DNA of 43,512 nucleotides, from positions 1 to 43,512 of the IMG/VR virus record IMGVR_UViG_2563366800_000009. One strand, 5' to 3'. This DNA is from a virus. Its lineage: Duplodnaviria > Heunggongvirae > Uroviricota > Caudoviricetes. The number at the start of each line of letters is the position of its first letter. Within the stretch, counting starts at the first letter, position 1. The notes below the pieces were generated by a model that was given only the letters and a program-made list of their open reading frames with translations, made no database searches and was not told the origin of the DNA. Both the position numbers and the translations under genes were made by a program. Positions 5,999 through 34,233 of the stretch are shown here, piece after piece.

Positions 5999-6235
5999 AT
6001 GTCACGCGAAGAGCCGCAAATAAATATCAGGATTTCCAAAGAGTTAAAGGCAAAGGTTAAAGCCAGGGCGCAACATAACAAGCGTTCCATGAATGCTGAA
6101 ATAATACAGATTATCGAAGATGCTGTTTGTGGTAGATCGCTTAATAGCAATGAATTTGCTCAGAAAGAGGCTGACAAATTCAGGGATGCGCTGATTGAAA
6201 CACTGAAAACCATGTATGGTAAGGATGCAAAATGA
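5999..6235 (+). CDS. mnt: Mnt-like ribbon-helix-helix repressor
   Basis: N-terminus PQINIRISKELKAKVKARAQHNKRSMNAEIIQIIEDA resembles P22 Mnt; divergent from arc-ant. Confidence 0.7.
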   Translation: MSREEPQINIRISKELKAKVKARAQHNKRSMNAEIIQIIEDAVCGRSLNSNEFAQKEADKFRDALIETLKTMYGKDAK

Positions 6236-6441
6236 ATAAAAAACAGTTTATTAAGTCAAAAACATCAAGCAAGGAAGAGCTAGAGAAAGAGCTAAACTCC
6301 CTGAAATATGCTCTGTGTCTGGTTTACTCAAGACTGCCAATGGAAGATAAAAACGCTATTTACAATGAAATGATTAGCAGCCTTGATTTTAACGATAGAG
6401 ACCTAGCATCCCACCTCAACAGCTTCCGCGTCCCTGAGTAA
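6232..6441 (+). CDS. Hypothetical 69-aa protein, translationally coupled to mnt
   Basis: ATGA start/stop overlap with mnt; AT-rich. Confidence 0.5.
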   Translation: MNKKQFIKSKTSSKEELEKELNSLKYALCLVYSRLPMEDKNAIYNEMISSLDFNDRDLASHLNSFRVPE

Positions 6442-6601
6442 TTCTGTTGCGGATTTGCTTCTTGCGGTGGTTTAGGCTGGAGAGCTTGGCTTCTGCTTCC
6501 GATATTTGCGCATCCAGATCTTTAAGTTCAAGATCTGAAAGTCGCTGGTCAAGCAGGGTTTGATTCAACTCGATGTTGTTCAGGCGTTCTTCTATGGTCA
6601 T
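6416..6601 (-). CDS. Hypothetical 61-aa coiled-coil ORF convergent with and overlapping the 69-aa ORF
   Basis: Heptad-like sequence MTIEERLNNIELNQTLLDQRLSDLELKDLDAQ; no clear RBS. Confidence 0.3.
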   Translation of the reverse strand: MTIEERLNNIELNQTLLDQRLSDLELKDLDAQISEAEAKLSSLNHRKKQIRNRITQGRGSC

Positions 6602-13614: not shown

Positions 13615-14114
13615 TATTCGCTCCCGTTATCGCAAGGTTCCTTTCGCTGGAAGTAATTCCAACCGTTCCACTTCGCCAACTGGTTACCACTACCAACAGG
13701 CATACGGTTTGGATAACCGGACTTACATTTAGCGGCTTTTGCTCTGTCCATTGCAGACAGTTTGACGAGTCGCTCTTTCCCGTATCTGGCAGTGGTTATA
13801 AGTTTTGCAGGTGCTTCCAGCGCATAATCCGGTGCAATGCGGCAGGCAAGGTTGAAAATGATGGCATTGATAGCGTTATTTGATAAACCGTGCTCATCGC
13901 CCGGATCCGGAGCAACATCTGCATCAGCAAAAATGTAGCCAACGTTGATACCAGGTGACGCATCACCGCCAAGCCATTCAGCCATCATCATTTCAAGGTC
14001 GTTGACGCCGTCTTCCATAGACTGCGGTTCGACATCTGTTAACGTGGCATTTGATGCCACACCGAGCTTACGTAATGCCGCAAGGACTAAATCACCCTTC
14101 GTTGTCAGGTTCAT
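13614..14114 (-). CDS. Tail accessory protein, P22 gp4-like
   Basis: [33 protein letters not shown] resembles the P22 gp4 N-terminus; start chosen at internal Met. Confidence 0.75.
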
Positions 14115-14316
14115 CTGCTGCCGCCTTAGGTTTTCGACCAGGCTTTTTACGCTGTTTTTCTTCTGGCTCTGCAACATCCTTCAAAAGGTCATCAGGATGT
14201 GAAAACCAGCCAGCATCCAGATATTCCTGAAGCTCTTCGGCTTTCACGATTTCAAAGTCGTATCCAACGCCTTTCCATTTCTTCATGTCTCCATGACGAA
14301 AGATCATGTGTGTCAT
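14092..14316 (-). CDS. Hypothetical small protein between coat and gp4 genes
   Basis: ATG at 14316 with GGAG RBS; basic C-terminus. Confidence 0.4.
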
Positions 14317-18746: not shown

Positions 18747-20246
18747 TTAAGTTCTCCGTGCGATGGGCCTGATTGGGGCTGGTATCTTTTTCTCTTTTGG
18801 TTTTTTGATGTCGCGCATCATTTTTGCGAAGCGGCGCATCATGTATGCATAGCGAACGGCTGAGAGAACGTCGTCGTTAAGCTTGACGATTTTCCCGTTT
18901 TCATCACGGTGATAGAGGCGGAACTCCTCAAAGAATGGCTCACAGGTGTTGAATACTTTGAAGCGACCATCGAGCATCATGTCGCGCAATTCAGTGATGC
19001 CAGGCTCAACAGCATTACCGCCATCAGGCCATGTCGCATGCTCCTGTAACATCATAAATCCAGCGTCTGCATACTGCCCTTTGAGCTGCTCACCGCCGCC
19101 CTTCTCATGCTGGTTTCCGTCATGAGGCCATGCGGTTGGCACTTTATGCGCCCATGATTTAACAGCCCCCCATGCCTGAACAGCTGTTTTTTCTTTCGCC
19201 TTCCACACGCGTGAAACGTAGATTGTGTCTGCGTCCTTATCCCACCAAAGCTGAACCTGAGCCTGTGGGTGATCCCATCCGAAATCCATCCCGCCAATCA
19301 CGTAGAAGTGATCAGGACACTCGAACGGCTGACACTTAATAGTCTCTTCCGGTATCTGGAAGATTCGACCACTACCCATCGTAGGAATACCGCGAGCACG
19401 CGCCTCTCTCTCATGCTCAGGATAAGATGCGATGATTTGCTCTTTCTGTTCGTCTGTGTAGTGCTCAGCGTCGTAGATGGTCATGTTGACCACTTTCTGC
19501 GACTTGCTGGGATTCTTCAGGAACTTGGTAACAACGTCAGACATCCCCATCAGCGGGGTAAACGTCAGAATTGAGAATTGACCGTATTTGTTGGTACGGG
19601 TAAGACCTTCGCCATAAATGCTGTATGGTGGCTCTTCGTCAAACCACACGCCGTGGATTGTGTCACCCTGCCAGCGAGCACGGCCTTGCGAGTATGGTTT
19701 GAAGTAGCAGATTGAAATGCCATCTTCAACGCCATCAGCCGTGTGATGCTTAACCAGAAGGTGATCAACAAGGTTCGGAAAGAAAGGAGACTTCTTCCAG
19801 CTAATGATGTCATCTTTCGGTATTGAACCGTAGCCCGGTTCATCATTCTCTTCAATACGACCGCACAGGATGCGTTGAGTCGTTTTGGTTACCGTCTCGT
19901 TTGTCTCGCCGCCAATCCAGAAGACAACAGGCTCATAGAAACGCCTACCTTTCCACTCACCGCCATATTTACCATCAGCAGGATAGCCTTTTGTGCCCGG
20001 ATAACGCCCGGTAAGGTGAAACGCGACTTCAGCAGCACCAGTAAATGACTTACCAATCTGGTTACCAGCCATAAAACAGCGCTCTGGATAGTCATGCCCG
20101 GCGTCGATGAACTCACGCTGTTTGCTGTATGGCGTAAATTCATATAGCAGGTGTGTGTTCCGGTAGTTCTCTTCTTCTTCGAGTAGCTCGAGCAATTCGA
20201 TTTGCTCTTCGTCGCTCAGGTTATCAAGAATCGCGTCCAGTTCCAC
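18747..20246 (-). CDS. Terminase large subunit (P22 gp2-like)
   Basis: 499 aa; overlaps small terminase end; ATPase/nuclease-type sequence. Confidence 0.85.
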
Positions 20247-20712
20247 GGTTGAATAGCTCCTTGATACGAGAGCGTCGCTTATCGCGATCTCCCTTATCAG
20301 GTGTCACGTCTTCAACTTGCGACTGCTCTTTGAGGCCCAAATCACGGGCGATGATATTAGCGTTGAGAAGGTCAGCAGCTGCGCCGGAGAATTTCTGGTC
20401 GTAGATGACTTTCTCTGCTCGCGTGGTGACCCCACAAAAATCTTCGTCAGCGCGAAATCTTCGCCATGTTTCATCGGCTATATCGAGGAACAGGCATAGG
20501 CCGGTGAGCGTCATTGCACGCATCTTGGCGATAGGCTCTTGCGTCACTTCACCCTGATACGAGAATGCTTTCATTTCCCACAGTGGATGCTCTTCCACCC
20601 ATGTGAAATATTCGCAGCATGCTTCCCACAGCACCTCAGGCGATTCGAATTTCGGGTTGCGCCCGTGACTGCTGCGGGCCTCCCAAAATCGGTTGCCCTT
20701 TGGTGCTGCCAT
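20224..20712 (-). CDS. Terminase small subunit (P22 gp3-like)
   Basis: 162 aa beginning [26 protein letters not shown], matching P22 gp3. Confidence 0.85.
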
Positions 20713-20717
20713 ATTGA

Positions 20718-20807
20718 TTATTTCCCTTCTGTTTGCTTATCCCACTCTTCGCGGAATTTGGATGGGTTGTCGAAGCCCTGAGAGCATGAACAAACTTTGA
20801 TTACCAT
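20718..20807 (-). CDS. Very small ORF (29 aa) upstream of small terminase
   Basis: ATG at 20807; below ORF-track cutoff; weak. Confidence 0.25.
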
Positions 20808-21001
20808 TACTTAGCTCCTTCCTGCTTGCCTGTGTTTGATGTCGTTTCAGCAGCAGCCCCAGAGCAATTAACGCTACCCGCAACACCATATCCATAACCA
20901 GTCTTGAAGAAATTGTTGCCAGTAAATTGGTTAACAATCTTCCCGCAGCACGGGCAGCGTTGGCATTGGCAATAAGGGGATTGATTATTCCAGTGATACA
21001 T
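20807..21001 (-). CDS. Hypothetical Cys-rich small protein (64 aa)
   Basis: ATG at 21001 preceded by AGGAG RBS; CQCQRCPCC motif. Confidence 0.45.
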   Translation of the reverse strand: MYHWNNQSPYCQCQRCPCCGKIVNQFTGNNFFKTGYGYGVAGSVNCSGAAAETTSNTGKQEGAK

Positions 21002-21374
21002 CTTGTTTCTCCTGAATGAATGGCAGGAAGTGATTAACCATCCTGTCCAGCATGTAACAGTACGTCTCGTTGGCATCTTCAGGCCTTGTCGTCACGCCGA
21101 CATCAGAGCAAACGTAAAAGCAGACGTGGGCGCACTCATGAACGAGCGTAGCGATCTGCTGATCGAATACTCCAATCAGATAGCATCTCTCACCCGTATC
21201 AGTGTTTTCATAGTTGCTTGCAAGCCCAAGATTGAATGGCTTCTCATCCCCGCTGCCGCCAAGGAATTTATCAGCGTGCTGAAACTGTTCTCTGGTTGTT
21301 GCGAGGTAGACGTGTGCACTTTGAAACAGCGGAATGGTGAACGCCGGGAGTTTGTGCCATTTGGCCTTAGCCAT
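20985..21374 (-). CDS. Hypothetical protein with HExxH motif (LVHECAHV); possible small zinc metallopeptidase
   Basis: 129-aa ORF; HExxH seen in translation. Confidence 0.5.
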   Translation of the reverse strand: MAKAKWHKLPAFTIPLFQSAHVYLATTREQFQHADKFLGGSGDEKPFNLGLASNYENTDTGERCYLIGVFDQQIATLVHECAHVCFYVCSDVGVTTRPEDANETYCYMLDRMVNHFLPFIQEKQDVSLE

Positions 21375-21375
21375 A

Positions 21376-21618
21376 TCACACTCCAGCGGTGAACAGGTCT
21401 AACGCTTCCTTCGATTTACGCACCGCTTCGATAGTACGGGTCGTGATATCTGAATTAGCGCCGCCTGACTGGAAGTGAATTTTGAATAGCTCAAGCTTCA
21501 GTTCGTCAGTGCCAATGAACTGAAATGCTTCTTCTGCTGCTGCGTTCTGGTTCATGACCAGTTTGTAAATCTCTAACTGGAATTTCTGTTCTTCAGTCAT
21601 GGGAATAATCTCTGCCAT
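21376..21618 (-). CDS. Hypothetical 80-aa protein
   Basis: ORF with GGAG RBS; adjacent to HExxH gene. Confidence 0.5.
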   Translation of the reverse strand: MAEIIPMTEEQKFQLEIYKLVMNQNAAAEEAFQFIGTDELKLELFKIHFQSGGANSDITTRTIEAVRKSKEALDLFTAGV

Positions 21619-21874: not shown

Positions 21875-22405
21875 TCACACCATCCCGGGCAAATACATTT
21901 GCACTTCATTTGCCGCTCTCTCGCGTGCAACATGAAGCAATCTTTTTCGCCCACCAACGCCCCACTTAGCCATTTGGCTTGCGCACTGGCTTATCGCTTT
22001 GGTTTCAGTATTGATGATGTGATCGATTCTATTCAGACGGGACATTGCGCCAACGCCGAGACGGACAACCGTTTTGAAAACTTCATAAACTTCGATTTCA
22101 AATTCCGGCTTAATCCATGCTGCATATCTGATTGCCAGAAGTTCAACACCCCACACACCTGGTTCTGCACCACCTTTGATTATTTTAAGTGGTTGAATTT
22201 GTTCCAAAGTGCTTTTTTGCACTTTGGCCTCCAGTGCTTTTATGAAGCGTTTTATCTGCGCGCTACGCAAAAACTGGCTTGGGCGCTGTTGCTCTGTAGC
22301 CTCTCCATTTGCAACTGCTGCTGCATGGAGATCGTTTAAGTTGTAGCGTCCATCCTCATCAACACGAACGGACACACCATTGACAATAACTGTTGGGTAC
22401 TTCAT
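21875..22405 (-). CDS. KilA-N domain protein
   Basis: N-terminal region with YNLNDLH-type KilA-N signature; 176 aa. Confidence 0.6.
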   Translation of the reverse strand: MKYPTVIVNGVSVRVDEDGRYNLNDLHAAAVANGEATEQQRPSQFLRSAQIKRFIKALEAKVQKSTLEQIQPLKIIKGGAEPGVWGVELLAIRYAAWIKPEFEIEVYEVFKTVVRLGVGAMSRLNRIDHIINTETKAISQCASQMAKWGVGGRKRLLHVARERAANEVQMYLPGMV

Positions 22406-22549: not shown

Positions 22550-22577
22550 TATAAAAAAGCCCCGCGAATGCGAGGCT
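22550..22577 (-). terminator. Putative rho-independent terminator downstream of Rz
   Basis: Imperfect GC hairpin followed by TTTTTTAT on the minus strand. Confidence 0.4.
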
Positions 22578-24457: not shown

Positions 24458-24946
24458 CTATGCTACATGTTTAATTTTCTCTACACGTTTCCGGTTTTTA
24501 AACGCACTATCCAGAACTGGGTAAATCATAAACAACGAAGCATTGAGGATTTCGTCAACTTCCCGGCGACAGGTTGCGAGCGATGGTTTTTGAATACGCC
24601 CGCCGCCCCGGCATAACATCTTGCGAGGTCTTGCGACACGATGATAGTAAGATGCAATGGCATGCTTGGAAGATCCATGAGCGTAGTAGCTGAGGAGGAT
24701 GCCAAAGGCTTTCTTGTCAATGCACATGACGGAATCGACGACCTGAGAAATCAACATTCCATCATCATCATTACACATTGGCCTTGTCATAACTCTTCCC
24801 GGCTCTACGCTCTCCATGAACTTCGCTATTACGCTGCTCATGCGCTTTTCCAGACGACCTGAATAAACCCATGCGCCCCACAGTTCAAGCCAGCCATTCA
24901 GCCAATCGTGCTGTTCTTTGGTGAGGTTTATTTCTCTTATGCTCAT
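24458..24946 (-). CDS. Q: Late-gene antiterminator Q
   Basis: WGAW and C-x-DDD motifs resembling Q proteins of the phage 21/933W type; lies between nin region and lysis genes. Confidence 0.7.
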   Translation of the reverse strand: MSIREINLTKEQHDWLNGWLELWGAWVYSGRLEKRMSSVIAKFMESVEPGRVMTRPMCNDDDGMLISQVVDSVMCIDKKAFGILLSYYAHGSSKHAIASYYHRVARPRKMLCRGGGRIQKPSLATCRREVDEILNASLFMIYPVLDSAFKNRKRVEKIKHVA

Positions 24947-27678: not shown

Positions 27679-29217
27679 TTATTCAGTCGGCAGTGCTACG
27701 CGCCAGGGGAGCAGTTCGCCGACCCGGTTTATCGGCCAGTCGGCTATGACGTCAAGGACATAGCGGAGGTAGCTTTCTGGCTCCACTCCGTTCAGTTTGC
27801 ACGTCCCGATCAGGCTGTACAGCAGCGCTCCCCGCTCTCCTCCATGATCCGAACCGAAGAACAGGTAGTTTTTGCGGCCCAGACTGACCATCCGCAACGC
27901 ATTTTCAGCGATGTTATTGTCCGCCTCAGCCCAGCCATCATCTGCATAGTACGTCAGCGCCGGCCACTGGTTCAGGGCGTATGCGAACGCTTTCGCCAGT
28001 TCTGAGTGTCGCGACAGGGTTTTCATCTTTTCACGCAGCCAGCTTTCCAGGGATTTCAGCAGCGGTTTCGTTTTCAACTGACGTTCGGCAAGGCGCTGCT
28101 CCGCCGTCATTCCCCTTATCTCTGCCTCGATGGCGTACAGTTCGCCGATCCGTTTCAGCGCTTCCTCCGTCAGGGCTGACGGGGTGCGAACGTGCACATC
28201 GTGGATTTTACGGCGGGCGTGAGCCCAACAGGCGGCTTCCGTTATCCGGCCATCCCGGTACAGCTCGTTGAACCCGGCGTATGCATCCGCCTGCAGTACA
28301 CCACTGAACCCCGCAAGATGGGTCTGCGGATGGATGCCTTTTCTGTCCGGGCTGTAAGCGAACCACACCGCCGGCGCCAGCGTTGACCCGGCGTTACGGT
28401 CGTCACGAACGTAGGTCCATAACCGCCCGGTCTTCGTTTTCTTATTGCCTGGCAACAGCACCGGGACAGGCGTGTCATCAGCATGGAGCTTACCGTCAGT
28501 CAGCACATAGTCCTGAAGCGCTTCTTCCAGCGGTGACAGTAGCCGGCAGCATGCATCCACCCAGCCCGACAGCAGTGAACGACTCAGCTCCACGCCCTGG
28601 CGGCCGTACATTTCAGACTGGCGGTACAGCGGGGTGTGCTCTGCATACTTTGAGATCAGCACGCGGGCCAGCAGCCCCGGTCCTGCGATACCCCGCTCGA
28701 TGGGCCGTGAAGGCGCGGGGGCCTGCACGATGGCATCGCACTGAGTACAGGCATGCTTTTCACGTACAGTCCGGATAACCCGGAAGACGCTGCGCATCAA
28801 CTCCAGCTGTTCGGCGGCATCCTCACCCAGATAGCTCAGTGAGCCTCCACATTCCGGGCAGCATGACGCTGCCGGCAGCAGCCGTTTTTCATCGCGGGGG
28901 AGTGATTCGGGGAACGGTTTGCGGGTGCGGGTTTGACGCAGCGGGCGCTGCACGGCCGGGGCGTCAACCCGACCGGTAAGGGTATCACTTTCTTTCTGAA
29001 GTGCCTTCAGGTCAGCTTCCATCTGTGCGATACGACGGGAGACTTTTTCGGAGCGGCTGCCGAAGTTCATCCGGCGCAGCTTATCCAGCTGTGCCTGCAG
29101 ATGGTCTATTTCGCGTTCACGCTCGTTCAGCTTTTCCAGCAGGGCACGGTTCAGCGCCTCCTGTTCGGCAAGGAGACGTTTCAGTGCATTGATATCGTCA
29201 GGAAGTGAGCTGCTCAT
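27679..29217 (-). CDS. tnpC: IS66-family transposase TnpC (orf3)
   Basis: 512 aa with coiled-coil N-terminus, CPECG zinc motif and DDE-type core typical of IS66 transposases. Confidence 0.9.
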
Positions 29218-33516: not shown

Positions 33517-34233
33517 ATGGAAAATAAAAAATCACTGACGACAGAACAGCTCGAAGACGCTAAGCGGCTTAAGGCTTTGTATGAGTCAAAAAAGAAAGAA
33601 TTGGGAATAACCCAATACTCAATCGCTGATGAACTGGGTATCACCCAAGGAGCGGTAGGGCATTATCTTAATGGCAGAAACGCGCTAAACGTTGAGGTTG
33701 CATCTGGTTTTGCACGATTGTTGCAAGTCTCAATTGCTGATTTTAGCCAGTCAATTGCTGCCAAGGTTGCAGAACAGGCAGAAAGCCTTAAGAGCGATGC
33801 CAACGTAAGGTATGCAGGGGAATACAGAGCAGGAAAGAGGTATCCGGTGTTAAGCAGTATCCAGGCTGGCTCGTGGTGTGAAGCATGCGAACCATACACC
33901 ATTAAAGACATAGATGTTTGGCTTGAGTCTGACGCGCATATTCAAGGTAATGCGTTTTGGCTTAAAGTGGAAGGTGATTCAATGACGGCACCGGTTGGGT
34001 TAAGCATTCCAGAGGGAACATTCGTTCTTTTCGATACCGGAAGGGAGGCGATCAACGGCAGCTTGGTCATAGCAAAACTTTCTGACTCTAACGAAGCAAC
34101 ATTCAAGAAGCTGATAATCGACGGCGGAAATAAATACCTCAAGGGACTTAATCCTGCATGGCCTCTCGTGCCAATCAATGGAAACTGCAAGATTATAGGC
34201 GTTGCAATTGAGACAAAACTAAGGCTGGTTTGA
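33517..34233 (+). CDS. cI: CI repressor (HTH N-terminal domain, S24-peptidase-like C-terminal domain)
   Basis: LTTEQLEDAKRLKALYESKKKELG and C-terminal LKVEGDSMTAP...TFKKL resemble lambda CI; divergent from cro. Confidence 0.9.
   Translation: MENKKSLTTEQLEDAKRLKALYESKKKELGITQYSIADELGITQGAVGHYLNGRNALNVEVASGFARLLQVSIADFSQSIAAKVAEQAESLKSDANVRYAGEYRAGKRYPVLSSIQAGSWCEACEPYTIKDIDVWLESDAHIQGNAFWLKVEGDSMTAPVGLSIPEGTFVLFDTGREAINGSLVIAKLSDSNEATFKKLIIDGGNKYLKGLNPAWPLVPINGNCKIIGVAIETKLRLV

What the first reader, a model, noticed from the sequence alone, without database searches (positions are those of the whole stretch)
20985..21374. 129-aa protein with an HExxH motif
The translation contains LVHECAHV, a minimal zinc-metallopeptidase signature, in a very small protein. 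Small phage HExxH proteins can act as regulators cleaving repressors or as anti-defence proteases, but I cannot place this one in a family.
Basis: seen in the sequence. Interest (0 to 1): 0.5.

Follow-up and report, generated by a model that had tools for sequence, protein, structure and literature searches.

The report
Small conserved phage zinc-protease-like protein
The 129-residue protein is real and belongs to a large, unstudied family of tiny phage proteins that keep the full metal-binding and catalytic signature of a zinc protease. It usually sits next to the DNA-packaging genes, and its target and role are unknown.

Summary
ORF 20985-21374 (minus strand) encodes 129 aa with HECAH at residues 79-83, preceded by a GGAG ribosome-binding site. 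One HExxH is about what chance gives in this window, so the motif alone proves nothing. Conservation does: among 129 divergent relatives (23-49% identity) the only invariant residues are H79, E80, H83 and E103.

E103 lies 19 residues after H83, at the start of the next predicted helix. That is the gluzincin arrangement. An AlphaFold model (pLDDT 85) gives the zincin core topology. A family profile hits only zinc metallopeptidases among PDB sequences (myroilysin, E=0.006).

The window is an E. coli P22-like prophage. The gene lies in the Q-dependent late operon, between the lysis cassette and the small terminase gene. A terminase gene lies within three genes downstream in 125 of 155 related loci.

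Best reading: a soluble, stand-alone minimal zinc metallopeptidase made late in infection as an accessory function. Its substrate is unknown.

The parts
20985..21374 (-). Gene for the 129-aa HExxH protein (called MP129 here; PHROG 1365; homologue of ST64T Orf-129 and P22/HK620 hkcC)
   Evidence: ORF listing. PHROG 1365, E=2e-37. 61% identity to ST64T Orf-129 and 35% to hkcC. PGAP annotates the gene as a hypothetical protein, WP_001029634.1.
21126..21140 (-). Codons for H79-E80-C81-A82-H83: two predicted metal ligands and the predicted general base, on predicted helix 74-91
   Evidence: Sequence. Invariant in 129 divergent relatives. Helix assignment from the AlphaFold model.
21054..21071 (-). 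Codons for N102-E103-T-Y-C106-Y107. E103 is the predicted third metal ligand, at the start of helix 103-127, 19 residues after H83
   Evidence: E103 is the majority residue in all 132 rows; Y107 in 128 of 132; C106 in 107 of 132. Helix.
21324..21362 (-). Codons for K5-W-H-K-L-P...I14-P-L-F17, an N-terminal 'KWPK..(I/V)P(L)(F/Y)' motif that the profile aligns to the N-terminus of mature myroilysin (STKWPNGSVITVGLYGG)
   Evidence: Conservation table. HMM alignment to myroilysin over profile positions 5-112.
21165..21188 (-). Codons for residues 63-70 (RCYLIGVF), the predicted beta-strand just before the active-site helix. In zincins this position is the substrate-binding edge strand
   Evidence: Strand 63-69 in the model. 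Y65, G68, V69 and F70 are conserved. The role as edge strand is inferred from general zincin knowledge.
21372..21384 (-). GGAG ribosome-binding site (21381-21384), the TGA stop of the upstream gene (21376-21378) and the ATG of MP129 (21372-21374): a tight stop/start junction
   Evidence: Sequence read on the minus strand.
21376..21618 (-). Upstream neighbour: 80-aa DUF2560 protein (the P22 orf80 family)
   Evidence: Pfam PF10834, E=1e-43. Adjacent to MP129 homologues, on either side, in 67 of 162 loci. However, only 8 of 79 loci with a near-identical DUF2560 carry an MP129 homologue.
20807..21001 (-). Downstream neighbour: an unannotated 64-aa Cys-rich ORF (CxCxxCxCC) with an AGGAGA ribosome-binding site; it overlaps the last 17 nt of MP129
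   Evidence: Sequence. Intact in all relatives that have it, and a 47%-identical homologue keeps the CxCQRCPCCGK motif. No PHROG or Pfam hit.
20224..20712 (-). Small terminase subunit (P22 gp3 type), the next gene downstream
   Evidence: Pfam GP3_package, E=9e-30; PHROG 606.
21875..22405 (-). KilA-N domain protein, two genes upstream
   Evidence: Pfam KilA-N, E=7e-18.
22558..22577 (-). Terminator-like hairpin with a T-run, between Rz and the KilA-N gene. Late transcription must read through it to reach MP129
   Evidence: Consensus scan: 8 pairs, 6 of them G-C. Read-through by Q-modified polymerase is inferred.
24458..24946 (-). Q-like antiterminator at the head of the same-strand late operon
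   Evidence: PHROG 943, E=2e-89.

Best explanation
MP129 is a soluble, cytoplasmic, stand-alone minimal zincin-type (gluzincin-like) metallopeptidase.

Proposed mechanism (inferred, not shown):
- H79 and H83 on the active-site helix, and E103 at the start of the following helix, hold one metal ion, most likely Zn2+.
- E80 activates the metal-bound water as general base.
- A substrate peptide lies against the strand formed by residues 63-69, just before the active-site helix.
- Y107, four residues after E103, sits where thermolysin-type enzymes have a residue that supports the first histidine ligand.

Expression: the gene is an accessory gene of the Q-dependent late operon of a P22-like prophage. 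It is co-transcribed and tightly coupled with the genes around it, and it is made together with terminase and head proteins.

What is shown: the gene is real and under selection; the four residues are invariant; the fold is predicted with good confidence; the position in the late operon is clear.

What is inferred: metal binding, proteolysis and the biological role. My best guess for the role is cleavage of a host or competitor protein late in infection (counter-defence or host takeover). A packaging-linked role is the main alternative.
For: Conservation:
- H79, E80, H83 and E103 are the only invariant columns among 129 relatives at 23-49% identity; G50, G93 and Y107 are above 90%.
- The family is large: 816 clusters at 50% identity with E<=1e-3, nearly all about 120 aa and single-domain.

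Fold:
- The H83-E103 spacing is 19 residues, and E103 opens a helix.
- The model (pLDDT 85, pTM 0.79) has the order strand-strand-helix-strand-strand-helix(HExxH)-helix(E). This matches the zincin core described in PMC5512222: a beta-sheet, an N-terminal helix, then an HExxH helix and a Glu helix.

Remote similarity:
- The family profile against all PDB sequences gives only 9 hits at E<=10, and all are zinc metallopeptidases. Myroilysin (E=0.006) aligns over profile positions 5-112; the others are BMP1, tolloid-like protein 1 and peptidyl-Lys metalloendopeptidase.
- 19 of 129 members weakly hit Pfam SprT-like (best E=1e-4). Further weak hits include DUF4344 (2 members) and, among other single-member hits, Astacin and M48 (1 member each).
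- BFVD gives 31 phage proteins with E<1e-3; the few that carry a name are called SprT-like, PolyVal metallopeptidase, Metalloprotease or IrrE.

Physical properties: pI 5.25 and no hydrophobic segment, so the protein should be soluble.

Context:
- The gene order on one strand is Q, S, R, Rz, KilA-N, DUF2560, MP129, 64-aa ORF, TerS, TerL.
- No convincing promoter of its own was found.
- A terminase gene lies within +3 genes on the same strand in 125 of 155 loci, and the median gap to the downstream gene is 3 nt.
- In an N4-like phage and a phi29-like contig the homologue sits among small early genes. In one contig it abuts a Tad2-like anti-Thoeris gene. These placements fit a host-directed role.
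Against: - No Pfam, NCBIfam or PADLOC model reaches its threshold.
- The PDB profile hits are partly driven by the HExxH helix itself.
- No biochemical or genetic data exist for any member; hkcC is listed as 'unknown function'.
- Late expression is unusual for an anti-defence gene.
- P22 virion composition (my own knowledge, not tested here) gives no hint that the protein is packaged.
- Truncated or frameshifted copies exist in some prophages, so the gene is dispensable there.
Confidence: 0.7

Rival explanations
1. Packaging-linked protease. MP129 acts with or for the DNA-packaging and head-assembly machinery. It might process a virion or packaging protein, or remove proteins that obstruct the DNA to be packaged, in the way SprT/Spartan-type proteases remove DNA-protein crosslinks.
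For: Position is strikingly conserved across unrelated terminase types. A terminase gene lies within +3 genes in 125 of 155 loci, covering at least 15 of 26 MP clusters. In distant members the gene lies between TerS and a 489-aa gene that is probably TerL, between TerL and the portal gene, or between the adaptor and gp10-like genes. Weak SprT-like hits occur in 19 of 129 members. Some variants carry a Lys-rich C-terminal tail. In 27 loci a second, unrelated HExxH gene (PF18894) sits between MP129 and TerS.
Against: P22 and HK620 keep the homologue far from the terminase genes, in the ant moron. In N4-like and phi29-like genomes it sits among early genes. MP129 is acidic (pI 5.25, net charge -7), so it is not an obvious DNA binder. 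The slot between lysis and terminase genes is a general accessory-gene hotspot in lambdoid phages, which dominate the sample.
Confidence: 0.2
2. ImmA/IrrE-type anti-repressor protease. MP129 would cleave a phage or host repressor to control the lysis-lysogeny decision.
For: Like MP129, IrrE uses HExxH plus a downstream Glu (my own knowledge). One BFVD hit is labelled IrrE, but weakly (E=6e-3, TM 0.35).
Against: The window protein gives no Peptidase_M78 hit at E<=1, and the family is not among the 25 most-hit of the 26 Pfam families hit by 129 relatives at E<=0.1. Its immediate neighbours are DUF2560 upstream and, downstream, a 64-aa ORF followed by TerS, not a repressor gene; the CI-like repressor (33517-34233) lies 12 kb away and points the other way. 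Expression from the late operon comes after the lysis-lysogeny decision.
Confidence: 0.03
3. Metal-binding but not a peptidase. The HExxH...E site would bind Fe or Zn for a different chemistry (for example the alpha-ketoglutarate/HExxH hydroxylases), or it would be purely structural or regulatory.
For: The best NCBIfam hit is TIGR04267, an aKG-HExxH-type peptide beta-hydroxylase (E=0.002, 18 bits, residues 75-104). Structural matches to solved peptidases are weak.
Against: That hit is far below its cutoff of 40 bits and covers only the HExxH-to-NE stretch. The invariant E80 is the classical general base of zincins. The full-length profile matches are to peptidases. At 129 aa there is little room for a cosubstrate pocket (inference).
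Confidence: 0.07
4. Chance motif in a spurious or decaying ORF.
For: About one HExxH is expected by chance in the open frames of the window. A 129-aa mirror ORF exists on the plus strand.
Against: There are hundreds of homologues with an invariant motif, a ribosome-binding site, tight coupling to neighbouring genes, and a confident predicted fold.
Confidence: 0.01

Closest known systems
ST64T Orf-129 / P22 and HK620 hkcC (PHROG 1365)
   Same: True homologues: 61% and 35% identity over nearly the full length, about 120-130 aa, with HECAH and NETYCY retained. All lie in late-operon accessory slots of P22-like phages.
   Different: hkcC sits in the 'ant moron' between gene 16/sieA and mnt, not next to the terminase genes. 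None has a known function. The P22 copy is not annotated as a CDS in the P22 RefSeq record.
Gluzincins of the thermolysin type (HExxH plus a Glu on the next helix)
   Same: MP129 has HExxH on a helix, an invariant Glu 19 residues after the second His (the thermolysin spacing, H146 to E166, from my own knowledge) preceded by Asn, and a beta-sheet N-terminal subdomain.
Astacin-family metzincins (myroilysin, BMP1, TLL1)
   Same: These are the best sequence-profile matches in the PDB. The alignment covers the N-terminal 'WP..(I/V)P(Y/F)' motif, the beta-strands and the HExxH helix.
   Different: The metzincin signature HExxHxxGxxH is absent. Position +3 is Phe. Position +6 is Cys or Leu and is not conserved. 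There is no Met-turn or lower subdomain, and the third ligand is Glu.
SprT-like / Spartan / Wss1 family (PF10263)
   Same: It is the only Pfam family hit repeatedly by family members (19 of 129, best E=1e-4). Some databases label relatives 'SprT-like'. It is also a small zincin core.
   Different: The score is below the Pfam threshold (12.7 against 25.6 bits). There is no conserved third His after HExxH. MP129 is acidic and has no zinc-ribbon or basic DNA-binding region.
Zincin-like MPTase domains of phage and plasmid polyvalent proteins (Iyer et al. 2017, PMC5512222)
   Same: The described core is the same (sheet, N-terminal helix, HExxH helix, Glu helix), and these domains also belong to phages and biological-conflict settings. 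One BFVD hit carries this label.
   Different: MP129 stands alone and is not a domain of a large injected multidomain protein. It gives no Pfam MPTase-PolyVal hit.
PF18894 'Putative phage metallopeptidase'
   Same: It is also an HExxH protein encoded just upstream of the small terminase gene. In 27 related loci it lies directly after the MP129 homologue.
   Different: No detectable relationship beyond the HExxH turn: hhalign probability 1.5%. It is 212 aa long.

Membership tests
Zincin-like metallopeptidase superfamily (gluzincin arrangement) | HExxH on an alpha-helix, conserved across the family | tested here: met
   HECAH at residues 79-83 lies inside predicted helix 74-91. H, E and H are invariant in 129 divergent relatives.
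Zincin-like metallopeptidase superfamily (gluzincin arrangement) | Third metal ligand is a Glu on the helix that follows the HExxH helix | tested here: met
   E103 is invariant and is the first residue of predicted helix 103-127. It lies 19 residues after H83.
Zincin-like metallopeptidase superfamily (gluzincin arrangement) | Core of a beta-sheet with an N-terminal helix before the two C-terminal helices (definition in PMC5512222) | tested here: met
   The model has strands at 11-13, 20-25, 50-56 and 63-69 and a helix at 28-37 before helices 74-91 and 103-127. The definition was read. This rests on a predicted structure only.
Zincin-like metallopeptidase superfamily (gluzincin arrangement) | Significant 3-D superposition on a solved zincin | tested here: inconclusive
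Zincin-like metallopeptidase superfamily (gluzincin arrangement) | Binds Zn2+ and hydrolyses peptide bonds | not testable with these tools
   Needs purified protein, metal analysis and activity assays.
SprT-like (Pfam PF10263) | Score above the Pfam gathering threshold | tested here: not met
   12.7 bits against a cutoff of 25.6, E=0.12, covering residues 73-91 only. 19 of 129 relatives hit weakly, best E=1e-4.
SprT-like (Pfam PF10263) | Third ligand is a His downstream of HExxH, and a basic DNA-binding or zinc-ribbon region is present (features taken from my own knowledge of SprT, Spartan and Wss1) | tested here: not met
   No conserved His after H83; the invariant residue is E103. pI 5.25, net charge -7.
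ImmA/IrrE (Peptidase_M78, COG2856) | Match to the family model | tested here: not met
   The window protein gives no hit at E<=1. The family is not among the 25 most-hit of the 26 Pfam families hit by 129 relatives at E<=0.1.
ImmA/IrrE (Peptidase_M78, COG2856) | Encoded next to its Xre/CI-type repressor substrate | tested here: not met
   The immediate neighbours are DUF2560 upstream and, downstream, a 64-aa ORF followed by TerS, none identified as a repressor. The CI-like repressor is 12 kb away on the other strand.
WLM (Wss1-like metalloprotease) | Match to the family model | tested here: not met
   No Pfam hit for the window protein at E<=1, and the family is not among the 25 most-hit of the 26 Pfam families hit by the 129 relatives at E<=0.1.
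Metzincins / astacins (M12A) | Extended motif HExxHxxGxxH with a third His, plus a Met-turn | tested here: not met
   The sequence is HECAHVCFYVC. Position +3 is F86 and position +6 is C89, which is Leu in most distant relatives. The profile similarity to myroilysin and BMP1 (E=0.006-0.2) covers only the N-terminal subdomain and the HExxH helix.
PolyVal MPTase (domains of polyvalent proteins) | Domain within a large multidomain injected protein; match to the Pfam MPTase-PolyVal model | tested here: not met
   The protein is a stand-alone 129 aa. The family is almost entirely about 105-140 aa and single-domain. No Pfam hit.
PF18894 PhageMetallopep | Profile similarity | tested here: not met
   hhalign of the family profile against the 212-aa PF18894 neighbour gives probability 1.5%.
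PHROG 1365 (Orf-129 / hkcC family) | Full-length match to the family profile | tested here: met
   E=2.1e-37, residues 1-125 against profile positions 3-121 of 127. tblastn matches to ST64T orf-129 and HK620 hkcC.

The most novel reading that the evidence does not exclude
MP129-family proteins may be dedicated late-stage proteases tied to the packaging module. They could destroy host immune sensors that recognise terminase, portal or capsid proteins at the moment those triggers are made. Alternatively they could clear protein obstacles from the DNA being packaged. Either would explain why a 120-aa zincin gene has repeatedly settled beside terminase genes of unrelated types. It would also give the unannotated P22 gene hkcC a function.
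Probability: 0.15. Interest if true: 0.7.

Novelty: new member of a known kind. Interest (0 to 1): 0.4.

Why it matters
The family is large: 816 clusters at 50% identity. It has no Pfam model, its PHROG carries no function, and genome pipelines label its members 'hypothetical'. Yet it keeps a complete catalytic signature in about 120 residues, which places it among the smallest predicted zincin cores.

Homologues exist in the model phages P22 (hkcC, not annotated as a CDS in the RefSeq record), HK620, ST64T, L and epsilon34. Deletions, catalytic-dead alleles and substrate trapping are therefore straightforward experiments.

If the substrate is a host defence or packaging-related protein, this would add a proteolytic mechanism to phage counter-defence or assembly. 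If the gene has no phenotype, it remains an ordinary accessory gene.

Tried and rejected
1. Named-family placement. Pfam, NCBIfam and PADLOC searches with the window protein found nothing above threshold. The aKG-HExxH hydroxylase hit (18 against 40 bits) covers only the motif region, so I treated it as motif-driven.
2. PDB by sequence. The close-homologue profile (A1) gave only a spurious hit to cathepsin A. The diverse profile (A2) gave metallopeptidases only.
4. Obligate DUF2560 pairing. The two genes are adjacent in either order in 67 of 162 loci, which looked promising. But only 8 of 79 loci with a near-identical DUF2560 carry an MP129 homologue, and DUF2560 occurs in 164 phage records against 81 for MP129. 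I conclude they share an accessory slot and are not an obligate module.
5. Relationship to the neighbouring PF18894 metallopeptidase: rejected (hhalign probability 1.5%).
6. Second copy in this prophage (an hkcC-type paralogue in the ant region): none found.
7. Own promoter (a moron expressed from the prophage): the scan found no more promoter-like sites than shuffled sequence gives, and none just upstream of the gene. This is weak evidence only.
8. Literature. Searches for hkcC, DUF2560, SprT-like with anti-defence, and phage-encoded HExxH metalloprotease found no functional study of this family.
9. The first attempt to fetch loci with the very diverse alignment failed because it had no conserved stretch. 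A motif-selected sub-alignment solved this.

Full report
**1. The observation**

The ORF at 20985-21374 on the minus strand starts with ATG and encodes 129 aa. Residues 77-84 read LVHECAHV, and the HECAH codons lie at 21126-21140. A GGAG ribosome-binding site lies 6 nt before the ATG. The stop codon of the upstream gene is 1 nt from that ATG (TGA-T-ATG).

The motif is the only HExxH in any open frame of at least 60 aa in the window, but composition predicts about one such occurrence. By itself it is therefore not significant. A 129-aa ORF of identical length on the opposite strand (21003-21392) is a shadow of this gene.

**2. Is it a conserved gene and a conserved motif?**

A search of the 5.8-billion-protein collection returned 206 homologues, nearly all 120-136 aa. 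They come from Escherichia, Salmonella, Citrobacter, Klebsiella, Enterobacter, Yersinia, Pantoea, Erwinia and metagenomes, and those that carry a source name are almost all called 'hypothetical'.
- Of the 120 listed, 115 contain HE..H. Four of the five exceptions are frameshifted or truncated fragments and the fifth is a NinF chimera.
- A profile search of 1.84 billion cluster representatives found 816 clusters at E<=1e-3 and 232 at E<=1e-10.
- In an alignment of the query with 128 of these representatives (23-49% identity), the only invariant columns are H79, E80, H83 and E103. G50, G93 and Y107 exceed 90%, and C106 is the majority residue in 107 of 132 rows.

**3. Anatomy and predicted fold**

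E103 lies 19 residues after H83 and is preceded by Asn in most members ('NE[TA][FY]CY'). From my own knowledge, this is the thermolysin-type gluzincin spacing (H146 to E166).

AlphaFold2, run with a 53-sequence alignment, gives mean pLDDT 85 and pTM 0.79. The elements are strands at 11-13, 20-25, 50-56 and 63-69, and helices at 28-37, 74-91 (carrying HExxH) and 103-127 (opening with E103). This is the core that Iyer et al. define for zincin-like metallopeptidases: a beta-sheet with an N-terminal helix, followed by an HExxH helix and a Glu-bearing helix (PMC5512222).

The protein is acidic (pI 5.25, net charge -7) and has no hydrophobic segment, so it should be soluble and cytoplasmic.

**4. 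Remote homology: for and against**

In favour of a zincin:
- A profile of the 129 diverse members, searched against all PDB sequences, gives only nine hits at E<=10, and all are zinc metallopeptidases. Myroilysin (E=0.006-0.0095) aligns over profile positions 5-112, including an N-terminal 'KWP...(I/V)P' motif and the strands, not only the HExxH helix. The remaining hits are BMP1, tolloid-like protein 1 and peptidyl-Lys metalloendopeptidase.
- Scanning all 129 members against Pfam gives SprT-like for 19 (best E=1e-4) and DUF4344 for 2. All other families are single-member hits; they include Astacin and M48 alongside unrelated families.
- BFVD returns 31 small phage proteins at E<1e-3, from Pseudomonas, Ralstonia, Erwinia, Achromobacter, Acinetobacter, crAss-like and other phages. 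The few that carry a name are labelled SprT-like, PolyVal metallopeptidase, Metalloprotease or IrrE.

Against, or at least not in favour:
- The window protein reaches no Pfam, NCBIfam or PADLOC threshold. SprT-like scores 12.7 bits against 25.6. TIGR04267, an aKG-HExxH hydroxylase, scores 18 against 40.
- Foldseek against the PDB finds nothing significant, and the AFDB library was not available.

I conclude that superfamily-level assignment (zincin, gluzincin arrangement) is well supported by sequence logic and by the predicted topology. Membership of any named family is not supported.

**5. What family it does belong to**

It is PHROG 1365, function unknown (E=2e-37).
- Among sequenced phages it is 61% identical to ST64T Orf-129, with equivalents in phages L, ST104, ST160, SE1, epsilon34 and g341c.
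- It is 42-43% identical to 180-194-aa variants in mEp515, mEp010 and MagusPhagus, which carry a Lys-rich C-terminal tail.
- It is 35% identical to hkcC of HK620 and P22.

The P22 hkcC ORF (L089:1489-1866) keeps HECAH and NETYCY, but it is not annotated as a CDS in the P22 RefSeq record. Casjens and colleagues list hkcC as a gene of unknown function in the 'ant moron' (PMC2629481).

Several Salmonella phages carry both an Orf-129-type and an hkcC-type copy (two places per record). This window has only one copy.

PGAP calls the gene a hypothetical protein (WP_001029634.1). This allele occurs in only 25-28 of 5426 complete E. coli genomes, always on the chromosome.

**6. Genomic setting**

The window is a P22-like (Lederbergvirus-type) prophage of E. 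coli. It carries a CI-like repressor, CII, an O-like replication protein, a DnaB-like helicase, NinB and RusA. On the minus strand the order is Q (24458-24946), holin, endolysin, Rz, a terminator-like hairpin (22558-22577), KilA-N, DUF2560, MP129, a 64-aa ORF, TerS (gp3), TerL, portal and so on down to Ant and the tailspike.

No promoter-like site beyond the shuffle expectation lies upstream of MP129. Expression from the Q-dependent late transcript is therefore the most likely mode. This is inferred, not shown.

**7. Comparative context**

I analysed 162 IMG/VR loci falling into 29 MP clusters at 80% identity.
- The downstream neighbour is on the same strand in 148 of 161 cases, with a median gap of 3 nt.
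- A terminase gene from one of the ten largest terminase neighbour families lies within +3 genes in 125 of 155 loci, covering at least 15 of 26 clusters.
- Lysis genes lie within three genes upstream in 57 loci.

The sample is dominated by enterobacterial lambdoid prophages, in which this slot is a known accessory-gene hotspot. More distant members give a mixed picture:
- between TerS and a 489-aa gene that is probably TerL (L091);
- between TerL and the portal gene (L256);
- between the adaptor and gp10-like genes (L085);
- four genes upstream of TerL and abutting a Tad2-like anti-Thoeris gene (L084);
- among small early genes of an N4-like phage (Moonfish gp75) and of a phi29-like contig (L086);
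- beside ParE, Rha and Bro genes in a Rodentibacter prophage (L088).

So the gene is an accessory gene with a marked, but not universal, preference for the packaging-module boundary.

**8. The DUF2560 neighbour**

DUF2560 is adjacent on either side in 67 of 162 loci, which suggested a two-gene module. However, among 79 loci with a near-identical DUF2560 only 8 carry an MP129 homologue within 3 kb. DUF2560 also occurs in 164 phage records, including P22, Sf6 and HK620, against 81 for MP129. I conclude that they share a slot and are not an obligate pair.

**9. Mechanism proposed**

Shown:
- The gene is real and under selection.
- H79, E80, H83 and E103 are invariant.
- The fold is confidently predicted, with the HExxH helix followed by the Glu helix.
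- The protein should be soluble.
- The gene lies in the late operon.

Inferred:
- H79, H83 and E103 bind one Zn2+.
- E80 is the general base for a metal-bound water.
- The strand at residues 63-69 binds the substrate backbone.
- Y107 buttresses the site.

Role:
- Most likely (about 0.35 of the total) is cleavage of a host or competitor protein, that is, counter-defence or host takeover. This fits the early-gene placement in lytic phages and the Tad2 neighbour.
- Next (about 0.2) is a packaging or assembly-linked function, which fits the adjacency to terminase genes.
- A repressor-cleaving ImmA-like role is unlikely.
- A non-peptidase metal enzyme cannot be excluded (about 0.07).

**10. Novelty and verdict**

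This is not a known, characterised protein. It is a new, unclassified family within the well-known zincin metallopeptidase superfamily, and it is notable for its minimal size and its position. I found no paper on its function.

A specialist would not be very surprised by a small phage zincin. The value lies in a clean, testable catalytic prediction for a gene present in P22 itself. Interest: 0.4.

Noticed in passing
window 20807-21001 (-): An unannotated 64-aa Cys-rich ORF (MYHWNNQSPYCQCQRCPCCGK...) with a strong AGGAGA ribosome-binding site overlaps the last 17 nt of MP129. It occupies the slot where phage L and ST64T carry the Dec decoration gene. It is intact in all close relatives, and a 47%-identical homologue keeps the CxCQRCPCCGK motif. 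It has no PHROG or Pfam hit, and PGAP does not annotate it in strain H6.
   Followed up: partly
L013:4376-5014 and 26 other loci (neighbour family 5): In 27 related prophages the MP129 homologue is followed directly by a second, unrelated HExxH gene: PF18894 'Putative phage metallopeptidase', 212 aa, which PHROG 513 labels 'transposase'. The small terminase gene comes next. This gives two different metallopeptidase-like genes in tandem ahead of the packaging genes.
   Followed up: partly
L089:1489-1866 (P22 NC_002371.2, about 13849-14226): Phage P22 carries an intact 125-aa homologue (hkcC) with HECAH and NETYCY. It lies between sieA and orf59a/mnt and overlaps the annotated sieA promoter. The P22 RefSeq record has no CDS there.
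   Followed up: partly
Phage records CP051285, NC_014900, NC_031019, DQ003260 and others: Several Salmonella P22-like phages show two matching places per genome: an Orf-129-type copy next to the terminase genes and an hkcC-type copy in the ant moron. Two paralogues in one 41-kb genome suggest non-redundant roles.
   Followed up: no
L084:5729-6004 and 6001-6570: In a metagenomic phage contig a 189-aa family member overlaps the stop codon of a Tad2-like (Thoeris anti-defence 2, PF11195) gene. ParB_N, thioredoxin and ABC-ATPase genes lie nearby, upstream of the terminase gene.
   Followed up: partly
P0116-P0120, P0127, P0128; L082:5001-5585 (phage mEp515): A subfamily of 173-194 aa adds a C-terminal acidic linker and a Lys/Arg-rich tail (...KKGKRKPKAKEA.VPRVMSFKRG) to the zincin core. 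It sits at the same lysis-terminase position in 53-kb lambdoid phages.
   Followed up: no
P0033, P0040, P0061, P0077, P0113: Some prophage copies are frameshifted or truncated before the HExxH motif. One 87-aa protein annotated 'NinF' is a chimera whose C-terminal part is the MP129 C-terminus. This shows decay and recombination of the gene in some lysogens.
   Followed up: no
window 27679-29217 (-): A 512-aa transposase (PHROG 688, E=3e-264) sits between the replication genes and the nin region of the prophage. It is probably an IS element inserted into the early-right operon.
   Followed up: no
window 21003-21392 (+): A 129-aa ORF of exactly the same length lies antisense to MP129. I treat it as a shadow ORF, because all homology evidence is on the minus strand.
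   Followed up: partly
window 22558-22577 (-): A strong terminator-like hairpin (8 pairs, 6 of them G-C, then a T-run) lies between Rz and the KilA-N gene, inside the late operon. The KilA-N, DUF2560, MP129 and terminase genes therefore depend on Q-mediated read-through, unless an undetected promoter exists.
   Followed up: no
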